Source of the DNA: Candidatus Fermentithermobacillaceae bacterium
Lineage (GTDB): Bacteria > Bacillota > Sulfobacillia > Fermentithermobacillales > Fermentithermobacillaceae
DNA length: 64,000 nucleotides
Direction of reading: 5' to 3'
Assembly: GCA_018052455.1 (NCBI GenBank)
Contig: JAGPNE010000001.1
Span: forward strand, 295,261-359,260
Positions 11,925 to 23,901 of this stretch are shown here, piece after piece; positions within the stretch are counted from its first letter, which is position 1, and each line of letters opens with the position of its first letter. The position numbers were made by a program, and so were the translations under genes. Under the pieces are notes generated by a model, which saw nothing but the letters and a program-made list of their open reading frames with translations, made no database searches and had not been told where the DNA came from.

Positions 11925-12599
11925 TCAGTCACGCCTTCCACGCAGCAGAAAAAGACGCATGAATTGTGCTAATGCCATTGCAGTAGCTGCGACATACGTA
12001 AGCGCTGCGGCATTTAGCATATTGCCAACCGCAACTGATTCCTGCCCCGCTACAAAGCCAAGTCCCTCCAGCATGTTAATCGCACGTTTTGAAGCATCGT
12101 ACTCAACAGGCAAAGTCACTATCTGGAAGATGACGGCGCCTAGGAAGAACAAAAGTCCCAGGTCCATAAGAAACCCTGATTGGGTTATCAGTCCTATCAA
12201 GAAAAGTGGGAATGCAGCATTTGATACTAGCTGAACTACGGGCACGAGGCCGTTTCTTATTGCGAGCGGAGCGTACCCAACTGCATGTTGTACAGCGTGC
12301 CCCACCTCATGGGCGGCAATACCTAATGCTGCTACTGAACTGCTCTCGTAAACACCTGACGATAGCCTAAGAGTTTTGTCCCTAGGATCGTAATGGTCCG
12401 TAAGTTCTCCAGATATTCTCTCAATCTTGACGTCGCCAAGGCCAGACTCCTGCAAGAGTCTCGCGGCAACCTTATAGGCAGGCACACCTGCTTCCGAATT
12501 GACTTCAGAGTACCGCCTGTAAGCAGAACTGACTCTAGATTGAGCCCATAGAGCAAATACAAGAGCGGGCAATACAAAAATCAAGTATCCTATGTCCAT
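11925..12599 (-). CDS. membrane zinc metallopeptidase, YugP-like
   Basis: HEVGHAVQH zinc motif, TM segments. Confidence 0.7.
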   Translation of the reverse strand: MDIGYLIFVLPALVFALWAQSRVSSAYRRYSEVNSEAGVPAYKVAARLLQESGLGDVKIERISGELTDHYDPRDKTLRLSSGVYESSSVAALGIAAHEVGHAVQHAVGYAPLAIRNGLVPVVQLVSNAAFPLFLIGLITQSGFLMDLGLLFFLGAVIFQIVTLPVEYDASKRAINMLEGLGFVAGQESVAVGNMLNAAALTYVAATAMALAQFMRLFLLRGRRD

Positions 12600-12650: not shown

Positions 12651-14108
12651 TTATTTATCTAAGTCGCCAAATCGGAAGGGCCCTTTCTGCCGACCTGCCA
12701 AGAAAGCTTTGGCTGACATCCGCCTCTTGCCTTCCGGTTGCACTTCTGTAACTGCTAGCAATCCTTCGCCACAGCGAACCAACAACTTAGATTCTTCGAT
12801 TCCAATTATCGTACCCGGAGCTGAGTCTGAATCCTCTTTCTCATTTGAGTCAGCCAGTTCGATTTGCCATATCTTAATACGCTCGTCACCAAAGGTGGTA
12901 ACTGCACCTGGAGCGGGCGAAAGCGCTCTTACTAAATTATGGATCTCTGTAGCAGGACGGGTCCAGTCGATCACATCTTCGCCAGGCTTCAGATGAAAAG
13001 CAACGGTCTTCACCTTTTCATCTTGAGCAATACGCGGAGCTGAGCCTTCATAAATTGCGTGAATCGACTCGAGTAATGCATCCGCACCTACGACCGAAAG
13101 GCGTTTTTCAAGTGTGCCTAGAGTCTCGTCGGGCCCAACTGGAACAACTCTCTGAAGGCATATGTCACCGGAGTCCATGCCTTCGTCCATGTACATTATT
13201 GATACACCGACTTCGGTTTCTCCGGCCATAAGTTGCCTCTGAATGGGATTACCTCCTCTGTACTTAGGCAGCAAAGAAGGGTGCACATTTAGGCACGCAT
13301 ATTTCGGAATCTCGAGCACTTCCTTTGGCAGCTTCTGACCAAAAGCAACCACTGCTATAAAATCGGGCTGAACTTCCTTGATTGCCGAAACAACATCAGG
13401 ACAGCTCATGTCCTCAGGTGTGATAACCTTGAGTCCAAGTTCGGTAGCTCTTTTCCTGACAGGGGTTGGCATTAGGATTCCAGTTCTGCCATACGGGCGA
13501 TCTGGTTGAGTGACTACAAGTGGAACGCTAATCCCCGCCCGAATAAGGGCGTCCAATGATGGCAAAGAAAACTCTGGACTACCCATAAAAACACAGGTAA
13601 GACCGAGTTCCTTTTCATTCCCTTCCTCGGTATTTTCTTCCTCCTCAATCTCGGTTATAGATATCGCTTTGTCTACAAACATAATACCATCTAGATGGTC
13701 TATCTCGTGACACAAAGCCCTGGCAAGGAGGCCCTCTCCTTCAACCCATGTAGTCCGACCGTCTCTATCCAATGCCTTGACAAGCACCCGCACAGGTCTT
13801 TCCACTTCTCCAACAAAACCAGGCCAACTCAGACATCCTTCCCACTGGACTTCTTTCTCATCGGATTCAGACACTATCTCGGGATTCACCAAGAAGTACG
13901 GTCCCTCCCCTACATCCAAGACTACAAGCCGCTTTGAGACGCCTACCTGTGGAGCAGCCAATCCAACTCCCGACGCTGCTCTCATGCTATCGAGCATGTC
14001 ATCGAGTGTTTTCTTGACGCTGTTATTCACCCTAGGAACGGGTTTCGCTCTTTTTCTAAGTACAGGGTCATCAAAAGTACGTATTTCGATATTACCCAAT
14101 AGTATCAC
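12651..14108 (-). CDS. def-fmt: fused peptide deformylase / methionyl-tRNA formyltransferase (Def-Fmt single ORF)
   Basis: N-terminal ~165 aa is Def (GLAAPQVG, EGCLS, HEIDHLDG motifs). An acidic linker EIEEEENTEEGNEKE follows. The C-terminal ~310 aa is Fmt (VFMGSPEF, HPSLLPKYRGG). Junction codons were checked by hand and are in one frame with no stop and no usable internal start. Confidence 0.85.
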   Translation of the reverse strand: MILLGNIEIRTFDDPVLRKRAKPVPRVNNSVKKTLDDMLDSMRAASGVGLAAPQVGVSKRLVVLDVGEGPYFLVNPEIVSESDEKEVQWEGCLSWPGFVGEVERPVRVLVKALDRDGRTTWVEGEGLLARALCHEIDHLDGIMFVDKAISITEIEEEENTEEGNEKELGLTCVFMGSPEFSLPSLDALIRAGISVPLVVTQPDRPYGRTGILMPTPVRKRATELGLKVITPEDMSCPDVVSAIKEVQPDFIAVVAFGQKLPKEVLEIPKYACLNVHPSLLPKYRGGNPIQRQLMAGETEVGVSIMYMDEGMDSGDICLQRVVPVGPDETLGTLEKRLSVVGADALLESIHAIYEGSAPRIAQDEKVKTVAFHLKPGEDVIDWTRPATEIHNLVRALSPAPGAVTTFGDERIKIWQIELADSNEKEDSDSAPGTIIGIEESKLLVRCGEGLLAVTEVQPEGKRRMSAKAFLAGRQKGPFRFGDLDK

Positions 14109-14286
14109 CCTTGAACTTTGTATACGCTTGTCAACTTATCTGGTAATGGTATCTGTGCGATAGACTTAATCTAGCTTAAGCTACAGAGTCAGGAATCTCG
14201 CGCACGTTCACCCTTTTTCTAATTATACAGTAAGGCAGACGCTTTGAGAAACAAACAGATGGGGCCATGCAGTACTCAGGTCACGT

Positions 14287-16257
14287 TCAGAACGCGCCGA
14301 AAGGTTCTTCGAGGTCTACATATATCTTCACCTGTAGGGACGTAACAATAGGCAAAGATGTCTTCACAGCTTCGGTCGCGCAGTTTCTGACCGGCGACTT
14401 CACCATTATGTGCCATCTGTACTGCCCTCGCACCTTAACCTTGGGAGCAGGGCTGGGGCCTAAAACAGTGATTTTGTCTGACTTGCTGTCGATTTCGGCA
14501 GCCAATAGTTCAGACGCCTCAATGACTTTTTCCTCGGACTTTCCTGCAACAGTGATCCTCATGATGAATCCGAAAGGAGGGTATTGCAGGGATTTTCTGT
14601 TCTGTGTCTCTATAGCATAGAAAAACTCTGGATCCAACACTCCCTTTATGGCATGGTGCCCTGGGTTTAGTGTCTGAATGATGAAGCGCTTCGTGCTTTC
14701 TGTGTAAGTGGATCTTTCGTTACCGTTCAAAATGCCAAGCAGTTTCATGAGCAGCCTAAAGACCTCTTCTGGCGCTAGATAGTCCGGGAGATTCAACATG
14801 TTGTCGGCAGATAAAACACCCAAAACGCTCACTTCAGGAATCTCTGAGACGCTGAAGATCATCTGGGTACATAGCAAACACGAAGGTCTCTGTGACTCAA
14901 ATCCTCGAATGGCTTCGTCAATGGACGCTTTGGAGTCTTGGTCCACTTGGAAAACCGGAACCCTAGGGAATCGCTTGTTGAACTCGGAACGAGCTCGATC
15001 TATGCCATAACCAATCAGTTTCCAGTCAACACCTTGACACACCGGGCACTGAACCGGAGGAGCGTGCCTATACCCACAAGTATGGCACACAAGCTCGCTT
15101 TCTTTCGAGTGATACGCCATGGGCACTGAGCACCTAGGACACAAGATAACATTTCCGCATTCGGTACATGCAAGACTAGATGCGGTGCCTCGTCTGTTTA
15201 GGAATAGAAGACCTCTCTCCTCGGAAGCAAACGCATCTGCCAGTGCAAGGTGCAGTTCTTTGCTTATAAGAACTCTTTTTTTGCTTCCCAAAAGACTGAC
15301 TATCTTCGAATCCACCTTATCGCTCATAGGGAACCCTTCCATAAAGCCGCAAAACCCGCCTTCCGATAGACCGACGTTCGCGACTACAGAGGGCACATAT
15401 GAGCCCAAGATGACGGAACAATTCTCATATTTGCCACGTAATCTCGCAACCGTTCTCCCGTTGTACTTGGGATACTCTTCTGCTTTGTAATGCAGTGATT
15501 CTTCATCATCGACAATGACGAGCCCTAGATCCCTTATGGGATTGAAAACTGCAGATCTCGTACCCACCACAATCCGTTTCTTGCCATCTTTTACATCGAG
15601 CCACTGCTTTTTTCTCGAAGCAGTGGTCATATCGGAGTGTGTTACAGCAATGGTCTCTTTACCGTAAATGGGCTCCAATCTTTCCTCGAAATCATGGGCT
15701 TTGTTGATCTCAGGTACAAGTACCAGCACGTTGGAACCAGAACTGATGGTTTTGTCGATTGCATCAACGTACGTCTTCCATCTAAACGAATCTGAACCTT
15801 GAACGAAGCACTCACGATTGGCCGAATCAAGTTTTCGCGGTTTTTCAAAGACGTAGAAGGCATTATCCTCTCGTACGCCTAATGCTGGCGGTTGTTCCTT
15901 CGTTAAAGCAGTTTTCTTGACCTGAGGCGGCCACAAGTAGCCCCAAAAGGACGAAATAGCAGCTAAGTAGTAATCTCTCAGCAGGAGACCAAAATCTAGA
16001 AGGTGCTTCGGCGGCAGGAAATTGATATCATACACAGCTATGATATCTTTCAGGTCAATTTCGGGCACAGTAGCAGGACGACCAACGACATACCCGTCCA
16101 CATTTCTCCGACCAAATGGAACATAGACTTTGGCACCGTAGGGTAGGAAACAATCTTGCGGCACTTTGTAGGTAAATGTCTTATCGCCCATCGTCGGAAC
16201 ATCTACCACAATATCTACGCAGTTGACGAGATCCACATCAATTCCTTCGTTCGTCAA
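14287..16257 (-). CDS. priA: primosomal protein N' (PriA) with degenerate ATPase motifs
   Basis: 3'-DNA-binding domain, helicase core and Cys-rich zinc region (CPRCS...CHTCG...CPVCQ) are present. The Walker A position reads GSDSFRWKT and motif II reads DDEES. Confidence 0.85.
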   Translation of the reverse strand: MTNEGIDVDLVNCVDIVVDVPTMGDKTFTYKVPQDCFLPYGAKVYVPFGRRNVDGYVVGRPATVPEIDLKDIIAVYDINFLPPKHLLDFGLLLRDYYLAAISSFWGYLWPPQVKKTALTKEQPPALGVREDNAFYVFEKPRKLDSANRECFVQGSDSFRWKTYVDAIDKTISSGSNVLVLVPEINKAHDFEERLEPIYGKETIAVTHSDMTTASRKKQWLDVKDGKKRIVVGTRSAVFNPIRDLGLVIVDDEESLHYKAEEYPKYNGRTVARLRGKYENCSVILGSYVPSVVANVGLSEGGFCGFMEGFPMSDKVDSKIVSLLGSKKRVLISKELHLALADAFASEERGLLFLNRRGTASSLACTECGNVILCPRCSVPMAYHSKESELVCHTCGYRHAPPVQCPVCQGVDWKLIGYGIDRARSEFNKRFPRVPVFQVDQDSKASIDEAIRGFESQRPSCLLCTQMIFSVSEIPEVSVLGVLSADNMLNLPDYLAPEEVFRLLMKLLGILNGNERSTYTESTKRFIIQTLNPGHHAIKGVLDPEFFYAIETQNRKSLQYPPFGFIMRITVAGKSEEKVIEASELLAAEIDSKSDKITVLGPSPAPKVKVRGQYRWHIMVKSPVRNCATEAVKTSLPIVTSLQVKIYVDLEEPFGAF

Positions 16258-23130: not shown

Positions 23131-23156
23131 TCCGGATGTATAATATGTTTGGCAGT

Positions 23157-23376
23157 CTTCGGGGCAGGGTGAAATTCCCGACCGGTGGTAATGCCGCTTC
23201 GCAAAAGGCGGACGAGCCCGACAGCCCCAGCGGTTGAGTCCGGTGAGATTCCGGCGCCGACAGTTATAGTCCGAATGGGAGGAGACTGGGGTACTTGTAC
23301 TTTACCCACAGTTGCCTAAACTTTTTAACCCCCTGAAGTAGCCAGACTCAAACTTTCAAGTATCTAAGGGGGTTTT
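23157..23376 (+). promoter_or_regulatory. FMN riboswitch (RFN element) with SD-sequestering expression platform
   Basis: CTTCGGGGCAGGGTGAAATTCCCGACCGGTGGTA...AGCCGACAGTTATAGTCCGAATGGGAGGAG is near-identical to the B. subtilis ribD leader consensus. Downstream, AACCCCCT (23327-23334) is the exact complement of the SD AGGGGGTT (23367-23374). Confidence 0.85.
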
Positions 23377-23379
23377 CCA

Positions 23380-23901
23380 ATGGGAAAAAGTCATGATTCT
23401 CTAATCACATTGGTAGTCCTGGGTCTGGTAACTTCAATAGTATTAGTATCTACTATGTTTCTCAAGTTACCGACCGCAACAGGCTACGTTCACCTAGGAG
23501 ACGGCGTGATTTTCGCCACCTCCCTTGCTCTCGGCCCACTTTACGGCATCGTTGCAGGCGCTTTAGGTTCGGCTCTTGCAGATATCTTTGGCGGGTACGT
23601 AGTCTGGGCGCCATGGACTCTGGTCATCAAAGGAGTGGCAGGTTTCATAGTGGCCAAGCTAGGCTACAATAAGGACAAAAAGAAACAGGTTTTCGCTATG
23701 GTGCTAGCATCAATTTGGATCATAGCAGGGTACGCGGCGGGAACCGCCGTGATTTATTCGCCCATGGCAATACTCCCTGAAGTAATGGGCAACGTGGTTC
23801 AAACAGGTTCGGGTGTACTAATTGGCGCAGTCTTGAGTCCTGTATTGGGCAAGATCATGTCAGAAACAAGCCTGAGCAGTAAAGTCGTGAAAGAACACTA
23901 A
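23380..23901 (+). CDS. ribU: ECF-transporter substrate-specific (S) component, probably riboflavin RibU
   Basis: 173 aa, about 5 TM helices, ECF S-component-like. Substrate assigned from the upstream FMN riboswitch. Confidence 0.7.
   Translation: MGKSHDSLITLVVLGLVTSIVLVSTMFLKLPTATGYVHLGDGVIFATSLALGPLYGIVAGALGSALADIFGGYVVWAPWTLVIKGVAGFIVAKLGYNKDKKKQVFAMVLASIWIIAGYAAGTAVIYSPMAILPEVMGNVVQTGSGVLIGAVLSPVLGKIMSETSLSSKVVKEH

What the first reader, a model, noticed from the sequence alone, without database searches (positions are those of the whole stretch)
12651..14108. In-frame Def-Fmt fusion protein with an acidic linker
Peptide deformylase and Met-tRNA formyltransferase are normally adjacent but separate genes. 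Here a single 485-aa ORF carries a complete Def (through HEIDHLDG) joined by EIEEEENTEEGNEKE to a complete Fmt beginning LTCVFMGSPEF. I translated the junction by hand from the DNA. There is no stop codon. The codon aligned to the usual Fmt Met is CTT. The only in-frame ATG nearby is the conserved Met of the VFMG motif, so Fmt cannot be made separately without truncation. The GAGGAGGAAG inside the linker looks like a fossil SD of a formerly separate fmt. A fused enzyme would couple formylation and deformylation activities physically, which is unusual.
Basis: seen in the sequence. Interest (0 to 1): 0.55.

Follow-up and report, generated by a model that had tools for sequence, protein, structure and literature searches.

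The report
Genuine Def–Fmt fusion gene, already-known kind
One gene in this uncultured heat-loving Bacillota bacterium really does encode the enzyme that formylates the initiator Met-tRNA joined to the enzyme that later removes the formyl group from new proteins, but such fusions are already catalogued and one from another genus has been shown to work, so this is a new example rather than a new phenomenon.

Summary
Window 12651..14108 (minus strand) is one uninterrupted 485-codon ORF. It encodes a complete peptide deformylase (Def, residues ~1-153), an acidic linker (~154-169) and a complete Met-tRNA formyltransferase (Fmt, 170-485). It is not an assembly error: four independent assemblies carry the identical 1458-nt gene. 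Fifty-six further protein clusters at 51-99% identity are also full-length fusions (plus one truncated fragment that spans the junction). Their linkers vary in length but are always net negative. All catalytic residues of both domains are invariant in 66 fused sequences. AlphaFold gives two confident domains joined by a disordered linker. No start codon is conserved at the junction, so Fmt is most likely made only as part of the fusion.

The fusion is not new as a kind. UniRef labels such proteins "Multifunctional fusion protein" (Thermaerobacter marianensis, Exiguobacterium). A 2025 paper showed that the Exiguobacterium def-fmt fusion complements an E. coli def-fmt deletion. The fusion is rare (about 20 of the 150 best-scoring 50%-identity representatives) and seems to have arisen several times. 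In many Clostridia, def and fmt lie in the same frame a few codons apart. The "fossil Shine-Dalgarno" idea is not supported. Verdict: real, ordinary in mechanism, a new member of a known rare kind. Interest is low to moderate.

The parts
12651..14108 (-). Whole def~fmt fusion ORF: 485 codons from the GTG, plus the stop at 12651..12653
   Evidence: The identical 1458-nt gene is present in four independent assemblies.
14097..14099 (-). TTG at codon 4, the probable true start codon (gives MGNIEIRTFDDPVL...)
   Evidence: Comparison with the family consensus N-terminus MAxLEIxxFxDPVL. AAGGG lies 8 nt upstream in the sequence. This is an inference.
13650..14108 (-). Peptide deformylase domain, residues 1-153. 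Motifs: GVGLAAPQ (47-54), EGCLS (90-94), HEIDH (134-138). It ends in a short beta-strand at 150-153.
   Evidence: PF01327 E 2e-48. TIGR00079 above its cut-off. Motif residues are invariant in 66 fused homologues. AlphaFold pLDDT is above 90. Best solved relative is 1lme.
13602..13649 (-). Acidic linker, residues 154-169 (IEEEENTEEGNEKELG), predicted to be disordered
   Evidence: pLDDT is below 50 for residues 157-166. In the clade the linker is 9-66 aa, about 38% D/E, and net negative in 57 of 57 clusters.
13637..13646 (-). It is four consecutive Glu codons.
   Evidence: It ends 38 nt upstream of codon L170. It is not conserved at the DNA level in L005-L008.
13599..13601 (-). CTT (L170), the codon at the position of the usual Fmt initiator Met
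   Evidence: TIGR00460 profile position 3 aligns to residue 172. Relatives carry TTG, TTG, CTT and TTC at this position. T. marianensis has CTG and Exiguobacterium has CAG.
12654..13601 (-). Met-tRNA formyltransferase module, residues 170-485: N-terminal formyltransferase domain and C-terminal tRNA-binding domain. Key residues: N274/H276/D312 triad; tRNA-recognition loop TQPDRPYGR (G207-R208).
   Evidence: TIGR00460 equivalog, 274 bits against a cut-off of 201.5. PF00551 and PF02911. Invariant residues. pLDDT above 90. Best solved relatives are 4iqf and 1fmt/2fmt.
14222..14250 (-). Promoter-like site (TTCTCA-17-TATAAT, 10 of 12 matches) in the priA-def spacer
   Evidence: This is a consensus match only; the count in the region is no higher than in shuffled sequence.

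Best explanation
The ORF encodes a single bifunctional polypeptide. An N-terminal peptide deformylase and a C-terminal methionyl-tRNA formyltransferase are joined by a short, disordered, strongly acidic linker. Each module folds on its own and carries out its normal reaction. Fmt formylates Met-tRNAfMet in the cytosol. Def removes the formyl group from nascent chains.

The fusion probably arose in the normal priA-def-fmt-rsmB operon when the def stop codon was lost. In many relatives def and fmt sit in the same reading frame only a few codons apart. The fusion then became fixed across the whole lineage (Candidatus Fermentithermobacillaceae and relatives).

The likely benefit is obligatory 1:1 co-expression with Def translated first, so that Fmt is never made without Def. 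Formylation without deformylation is the lethal combination in E. coli genetics. Direct substrate channelling is not a likely benefit.

Shown here: the ORF, its conservation, the intact catalytic residues and the two-domain model. Inferred: that both activities are real in this protein, how it arose, and the selective rationale.
For: - The ORF and its domains are confirmed.
- The identical gene occurs in four independent assemblies.
- All 120 best hits among 5.8 billion proteins carry Def next to Fmt domains: 119 have all three domains and one is a truncated fragment. Clusters P0001-P0057 (51-99% identity) share the acidic-linker junction.
- No stand-alone Fmt scores within the range of these fused hits. 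The closest full-length stand-alone Fmt proteins are 48-49% identical.
- At the DNA level the genes in L005-L008 are fused. Their linkers differ in length, always in frame.
- Def metal and catalytic motifs, the Fmt N/H/D triad and the G-R tRNA loop are invariant in 66 fused sequences.
- AlphaFold: mean pLDDT 93, only residues 157-166 below 50 between the domains, pTM 0.68.
- Sixty of 76 split loci in other Clostridia and Desulfotomaculia have def and fmt in the same frame, with spacers of 12-141 nt.
- The Exiguobacterium def-fmt fusion restores growth of an E. coli def-fmt deletion strain (PMC12690207). That protein is P0126, 42% identical to this one.
- Synteny is canonical: gmk, coaBC, priA, def~fmt, Zn_peptidase_2, rsmB, rlmN, PP2C, PASTA kinase, rsgA, rpe.
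Against: - There is no biochemical or proteomic evidence for this protein.
- I could not check the rest of the genome for a second def or fmt. None lies in the 64-kb window. All Exiguobacterium genomes with the fusion do carry a second deformylase.
- Proteolytic cleavage in the exposed linker, which would release two enzymes, cannot be excluded.
- The excess of same-frame loci among split relatives may be inflated by how tblastn ranked the loci.
- The stoichiometry and toxicity-avoidance rationale comes from E. coli genetics (Mazel et al. 1994, cited in PMC12690207) and was not tested here.
Confidence: 0.85

Rival explanations
1. Sequencing or assembly artefact: a stop codon or frameshift between separate def and fmt genes was lost in this assembly.
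For: None was found. It is a generic possibility for a metagenome-derived window.
Against: The gene has zero mismatches over 1458 nt in four contigs from four different sequencing runs. Fifty-six further clusters (51-99% identity) are full-length fusions, with linker indels always in frame. Cultured T. marianensis and Exiguobacterium genomes are fused at the DNA level.
Confidence: 0.01
2. There is one ORF but two proteins. Fmt would be produced separately, either by internal initiation near the junction or by proteolytic cleavage within the exposed acidic linker. The fusion would then be only a transcriptional and translational convenience.
For: The linker is predicted to be disordered and exposed. 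A membrane Zn-metallopeptidase gene (PF04298) lies immediately downstream. Some relatives have TTG or ATG near the junction: L005 and L006 have TTG at the Met position, and L007 has an ATG two codons upstream.
Against: The window has no ATG, GTG or TTG between M143 and M175. Starting at M175 would delete the first beta-strand of the Fmt fold (E171-176). The codon at the Met position is not conserved (CTT, TTG, CTT, TTC), and no SD-like motif sits at a workable distance. There is no promoter-like site near the junction on the coding strand. The Zn_peptidase_2 gene occupies the same position in Thermaerobacter, which has a quite different, short, non-acidic junction. That points to synteny, not a dedicated protease.
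Confidence: 0.1
3. One of the two domains is a catalytically dead passenger, with the real activity supplied by a stand-alone paralogue elsewhere in the genome.
For: All Exiguobacterium genomes with the fusion also encode a second, intact deformylase. The rest of this genome could not be inspected.
Against: Every catalytic and metal-binding residue of Def, and the N/H/D triad plus tRNA loop of Fmt, is invariant across 66 fused sequences down to 43% identity. Both equivalog HMMs score above their curated cut-offs. The Exiguobacterium fusion supplies both activities in E. coli.
Confidence: 0.04

Closest known systems
Exiguobacterium def-fmt fusion (for example WP_021067074.1 = P0126; UniRef 'Multifunctional fusion protein'), reported and validated functionally in PMC12690207 (Mol Biol Evol 2025)
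   Same: It has the same domain order, Def then Formyl_trans_N then Formyl_trans_C, in one ORF. It sits at the same operon position between priA and rsmB. The Fmt initiator Met is replaced by another residue (CAG there, CTT here).
   Different: It is only 42% identical. Its junction is short and not acidic (..FTDKLAVPDKGTDQRIVFMGTP). It falls apart from this clade in both neighbour-joining trees, with split genes in between, so it is probably an independent fusion event. It comes from Bacillales rather than Ca. Fermentithermobacillia. No Zn_peptidase_2 gene lies downstream of it.
Thermaerobacter marianensis DSM 12885 fused Def-Fmt (P0119, 550 aa, CP002344.1) and related fusions with 'PPE(T/S)xLR(I/V)VFMGTP' junctions
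   Same: It is a single ORF with the same three domains. Synteny is identical, including Zn_peptidase_2 downstream. It has Leu (CTG) at the Met position. It groups in the same large fused block as this clade in the trees.
   Different: It is 42% identical. Its junction is about 10 residues shorter and lacks the acidic stretch. It has a long basic N-terminal extension.
Canonical separate def and fmt genes of the def-fmt(-rsmB) operon (E. coli, B. subtilis, most Clostridia)
   Same: The same two enzymes occur in the same order and the same neighbourhood. In 60 of the 76 split loci examined the two genes are in the same frame and 12-141 nt apart.
   Different: A stop codon and a separate fmt start, with its own ribosome-binding site, allow independent translation. 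Here both have been lost.

Membership tests
Peptide deformylase (PF01327 / TIGR00079) | The profile HMM match exceeds the curated cut-off. | tested here: met
   PF01327 scores 164 bits against a cut-off of 22.8. TIGR00079 scores 145.5 against 103.95.
Peptide deformylase (PF01327 / TIGR00079) | The three signature motifs are present: GxGxAAxQ, EGCLS and HExxH (metal ligands Cys, His, His; catalytic Glu). | tested here: met
   GVGLAAPQ at 47-54, EGCLS at 90-94 and HEIDH at 134-138 are present. They are invariant in 66 fused homologues.
Peptide deformylase (PF01327 / TIGR00079) | The protein has deformylase activity on formyl-Met peptides. | not testable with these tools
   The only evidence is by analogy: the Exiguobacterium fusion complements an E. 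coli def-fmt deletion.
Methionyl-tRNA formyltransferase (TIGR00460 equivalog) | The equivalog HMM scores above its cut-off, and both the N- and C-terminal domains are present. | tested here: met
   TIGR00460 scores 274.2 bits against a cut-off of 201.5 over residues 172-474. PF00551 and PF02911 both match.
Methionyl-tRNA formyltransferase (TIGR00460 equivalog) | The catalytic Asn/His/Asp triad (E. coli N108, H110, D146) and the initiator-tRNA recognition loop (E. coli G41-R42) are present. | tested here: met
   N274, H276, D312 and G207-R208 are invariant in alignment A1. The mapping to E. coli numbering was done by hand from the known E. coli sequence, recalled from memory.
Def-Fmt 'multifunctional fusion protein' (Exiguobacterium type, PMC12690207) | A single uninterrupted ORF with Def at the N-terminus and Fmt at the C-terminus. 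| tested here: met
   The gene is identical in four assemblies.
Def-Fmt 'multifunctional fusion protein' (Exiguobacterium type, PMC12690207) | Both activities are delivered by the one polypeptide in vivo. | not testable with these tools
   Intact catalytic residues support this, but no experiment was done.
Def-Fmt 'multifunctional fusion protein' (Exiguobacterium type, PMC12690207) | The fusion shares descent, that is the same fusion event, with the Exiguobacterium protein. | tested here: not met
   The junction sequences are unrelated. P0126 is separated from this clade by split genes in both neighbour-joining trees. The trees are crude, so this is suggestive rather than decisive.
Def-Fmt 'multifunctional fusion protein' (Exiguobacterium type, PMC12690207) | The genome also carries a second stand-alone deformylase, as in all Exiguobacterium genomes. 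| tested here: inconclusive
   No second def or fmt lies in the 64-kb window (tblastn). The rest of the genome is not available.

The most novel reading that the evidence does not exclude
In this lineage the fusion may be the only Def and the only Fmt in the cell, and the conserved net-negative flexible linker may itself be functional. For example, it could keep the tRNA-binding Fmt module off the ribosome surface while Def works at the exit tunnel. Conversely, it could tether Fmt near translating ribosomes so that formylation capacity tracks ribosome number. That would make the fusion a built-in regulator of the formylation cycle, not a neutral stop-codon loss.
Probability: 0.12. Interest if true: 0.5.

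Novelty: new member of a known kind. Interest (0 to 1): 0.25.

Why it matters
The finding shows that the Def-Fmt fusion, reported in 2025 as an oddity of Exiguobacterium, is the fixed state of a whole uncultured thermophilic Bacillota lineage. It also occurs in Thermaerobacter and in several other groups, probably through repeated loss of the def stop codon.

This supports the idea that Def and Fmt levels need to be matched. It also offers natural linker variants, from short neutral to long acidic, for anyone studying how deformylase works at the ribosome when a 35-kDa partner is attached to its C-terminus.

It does not change what is known about either enzyme. For genome annotation, the practical point is that these genes are usually named only 'methionyl-tRNA formyltransferase', which hides the organism's deformylase.

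Tried and rejected
1. Assembly error. Rejected: four independent assemblies are identical.

2. Internal start for Fmt. Rejected: there is no canonical start codon between M143 and M175, and the codon at the Met position is not conserved in relatives.

3. Fossil SD at GAGGAGGAAG. Rejected as positioned: it is 38 nt from the Met-equivalent codon and is not conserved as DNA, whereas acidity is conserved as protein. AAGGAA, 6 nt upstream of CTT, is better placed but is also not conserved.

4. Taxonomic census with the genome-contig scan. It returned mostly split loci, because the scan relies on exact peptide patterns from the query. It is therefore not a census, and tblastn ranking may favour same-frame loci. 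My first automatic call of L073 (Ammonifex) as 'fused' was wrong. Motif-level inspection shows def and fmt there in different frames.

5. Counting independent origins. Fitch parsimony on a neighbour-joining tree of the Fmt domain gives 15 changes. I treat this only as 'several', because the tree is poorly resolved.

6. Sequence of the synthesised Exiguobacterium gene. It is not in the paper's supplements. I obtained the natural protein through the cluster look-up instead.

7. Solved structure of a fusion. No PDB chain spans both halves.

8. Second def or fmt in the genome.

Full report
**1. Observation**

The window has one open reading frame at 12651..14108 on the minus strand. It is 485 codons long from a GTG start and has no internal stop.

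I re-read the junction on the coding strand.

- Pfam finds Pep_deformylase at residues 8-150, Formyl_trans_N at 176-347 and Formyl_trans_C at 373-473.
- The NCBIfam equivalog models for fmt (TIGR00460: 274 bits, cut-off 201.5) and for peptide deformylase (TIGR00079: 145.5 bits, cut-off 104) both pass.
- The fmt profile starts at its position 3 on residue 172. The usual initiator Met therefore aligns with L170, codon CTT at 13601..13599.
- There is no ATG, GTG or TTG in frame between M143 and M175.

One small correction: the real start is probably the TTG at codon 4 (14099..14097). That gives an N-terminus matching the family consensus and a better-spaced purine-rich site upstream.

**2. The ORF is not an artefact**

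The exact 485-aa protein is encoded on contigs assembled independently from four sequencing runs: ERR6188820, ERR6188837, ERR6175446 and ERR12350209. All four genes are identical to the window over all 1458 nt.

In a search of 5.8 billion proteins, all 120 best hits join a deformylase domain to formyltransferase domains. Of these, 119 carry all three domains; one, P0058, is a truncated 311-aa fragment with the first two.

Clusters P0001-P0057 (51-99% identity) share this clade's junction. The junction has three parts:
- a conserved D(K/R)A..I.E(V/I) segment ending the Def fold;
- a variable linker;
- the motif (T/S/R)(C/A)VFMGSPEF.

I defined the linker core as running from the end of the Def strand to two residues before VFMG. 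It is 9-66 residues long (median 16), about 38% Asp+Glu and 7% Lys+Arg. It is net negative in 57 of 57 clusters.

At the DNA level, four species-representative genomes are fused, with linker length differences always in frame. These are L005-L008: Candidatus Fermentithermobacillaceae and unclassified Bacillota MAGs, 67-84% identical.

No stand-alone Fmt appears among hits scoring in the range of these fused proteins. The nearest full-length stand-alone Fmt representatives are 48-49% identical (P0133 and P0137). The fused state therefore looks fixed in this lineage. NCBI taxonomy places it in the class Candidatus Fermentithermobacillia, phylum Bacillota.

**3. Both halves look functional**

I aligned 66 fused proteins reaching down to 43% identity. 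The following residues are invariant:
- the deformylase motifs: G47/L50-A51-A52/Q54, E90/C92-L93-S94, and H134-E135/H138;
- the formyltransferase catalytic Asn274, His276 and Asp312;
- Gly207-Arg208 of the initiator-tRNA recognition loop.

The mapping of the Fmt residues to E. coli N108, H110, D146 and R42 is my own, made from the E. coli sequence as I recall it.

An AlphaFold2 model built on that alignment has mean pLDDT 93 and pTM 0.68. Both modules score above 90 and only residues 157-166 between them fall below 50. That is the signature of two rigid domains on a flexible tether.

In the model, Def ends with a short helix (144-147) and a short strand (150-153). It does not end with the long basic C-terminal helix that E. 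coli deformylase uses to dock on the ribosome near uL22. That docking role is established knowledge (Bingel-Erlenmeyer et al. 2008), cited from memory and not tested here.

No chain in the PDB spans both halves. The best solved relatives are the Fmt structures 4iqf and 1fmt/2fmt and the deformylase 1lme.

**4. Context**

The gene sits in the standard Bacillota arrangement: guanylate kinase, CoaBC, PriA, def~fmt, a PF04298 zinc metallopeptidase, RsmB, RlmN, PP2C phosphatase, PASTA kinase, RsgA, ribulose-phosphate epimerase.

There is no second def or fmt anywhere in the 64-kb window (tblastn). The rest of the genome could not be examined.

A promoter-like hexamer pair lies in the priA-def spacer and none lies near the junction on the coding strand. 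The counts are no higher than in shuffled sequence.

**5. How the fusion probably arose, and what it does**

I checked 76 split loci from other Clostridia, Desulfotomaculia and related groups. In 60 of them, def and fmt are in the same reading frame with only 12-141 nt between the def stop and the VFMG motif. Often a single stop codon separates them. This fraction may be inflated by tblastn ranking.

Many of those stand-alone Def proteins already end in acidic tails, for example ..LEYVEPEEN* and ..DLTDEGED*. Losing one stop codon would therefore produce just this sort of protein, including an acidic junction.

- GAGGAGG at 13646..13640 ends 38 nt upstream of the Met-equivalent codon.
- It is simply four Glu codons.
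- Relatives keep the negative charge but not the DNA string. L008 uses GAC and GAT Asp codons.
- The codon replacing the Met is CTT, TTG, TTG, CTT and TTC in the window and L005-L008. It is CTG in Thermaerobacter and CAG in Exiguobacterium. No internal start is conserved.
- Starting at M175 would remove the first beta-strand of the Fmt fold (E171-176).

Direct channelling between the two active sites is implausible. The Fmt product must be used in initiation and the chain must emerge from the ribosome before Def acts; this is established pathway knowledge.

The most economical benefit is obligatory 1:1 co-expression with Def made first. In E. coli, def is essential only when fmt is active (Mazel et al. 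1994, as cited in PMC12690207). This rationale is an inference.

**6. Comparison with what is known**

The architecture is already in public databases. UniRef names the Thermaerobacter marianensis and Exiguobacterium proteins 'Multifunctional fusion protein', while NCBI and JGI call them only 'methionyl-tRNA formyltransferase'.

A 2025 Molecular Biology and Evolution paper (PMC12690207) described def-fmt fusions in the four Exiguobacterium reference genomes as 'an unusual case'. It noted a second deformylase in all of those genomes. It also showed that the E. alkaliphilum fusion fully rescues an E. coli def-fmt deletion strain.

I recovered an Exiguobacterium fusion (E. chiriqhucha) as P0126. 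It is 461 aa and 42% identical to this protein, and I confirmed at the DNA level that it is fused. Its junction (..DKLAVPDKGTDQRIVFMGTP) is short and not acidic. It lies away from this clade in both crude neighbour-joining trees.

The T. marianensis complete genome is also fused at the DNA level. It has the same synteny, including the PF04298 peptidase, but a short non-acidic junction.

The junction types among other hits point to several independent events or to deep divergence. Examples:
- PPETTLRIVFMGTPEF;
- EVREVxPAPRVVFLGTGEF;
- TELVEGELHKV...MKIVYMGTPDF.

Fitch parsimony on an Fmt-only neighbour-joining tree gives 15 state changes. I read that only as 'several'.

Some metagenomic 'fusions' that retain the Met could be artefacts of the translation table used. 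The window clade, Thermaerobacter and Exiguobacterium were all checked on DNA.

The fusion is rare overall. Among the 150 best 50%-identity representatives out of 1.84 billion proteins, only about 20 are fusions. The rest are ~310-aa stand-alone Fmt proteins. In total 7,558 representatives match at E <= 1e-30.

**7. Verdict**

The main interpretation, a true fusion with Fmt not separately translatable, is supported. The 'fossil SD' and 'physical coupling of activities' ideas are not supported.

The feature is a new member of a known, rare and recurrent kind. It has two modest new points: it is fixed across an uncultured class-level lineage, and it carries a conserved net-negative disordered linker absent from the published example.

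Interest is 0.25. The most novel reading that remains open is that this is the cell's only Def and Fmt and that the acidic tether has a function of its own at the ribosome. I give that about 12% probability.

Noticed in passing
window 14287..16257 (-): The PriA homologue is short (656 aa) and matches only the 3'-DNA-binding, Cys-rich zinc-ribbon and C-terminal PriA domains at strong E-values. The DEAD hit is below the gathering score (25.5 bits against 26) and begins at profile position 38, so it misses the Walker A region. The Helicase_C hit is also weak (E 1.3e-4) and falls on the same stretch as the DEAD hit, residues 166-235. By eye, the Walker A position reads QGSDSFRWKT instead of GxTGSGKT, and motif II reads DDEES instead of DEEH. 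PriA of T. marianensis (833 aa) and Exiguobacterium (774 aa) hit DEAD, ResIII and Helicase_C normally. This may be a degenerate helicase core.
   Followed up: partly
window 11925..12599 (-); L085 5814..6497: A PF04298 putative neutral zinc metallopeptidase gene (224 aa, predicted membrane protein) is inserted between fmt and rsmB. It occurs both here and in Thermaerobacter marianensis, but not in Exiguobacterium. It is a synteny marker linking the two fused lineages. Its function is unknown.
   Followed up: partly
window 23151..23290 (+): An FMN riboswitch (RF00050, 84.8 bits) lies upstream of the ORF at 23380..23901 (+).
   Followed up: no
L009-L084 (split def/fmt loci from other Clostridia and Desulfotomaculia): In 60 of 76 loci, def and fmt are in the same reading frame and separated by very short spacers, often by a single stop codon. 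Many stand-alone Def proteins end in acidic tails. The sample may be biased by tblastn ranking. If the pattern is real, it would explain why the fusion recurs.
   Followed up: partly
P0051, P0055, P0056, P0057: Some members of the fused clade have much longer linkers, 55-84 residues between HExxH and VFMG. These are low-complexity and rich in E, A, G, P and S, showing that the tether tolerates large expansions.
   Followed up: no
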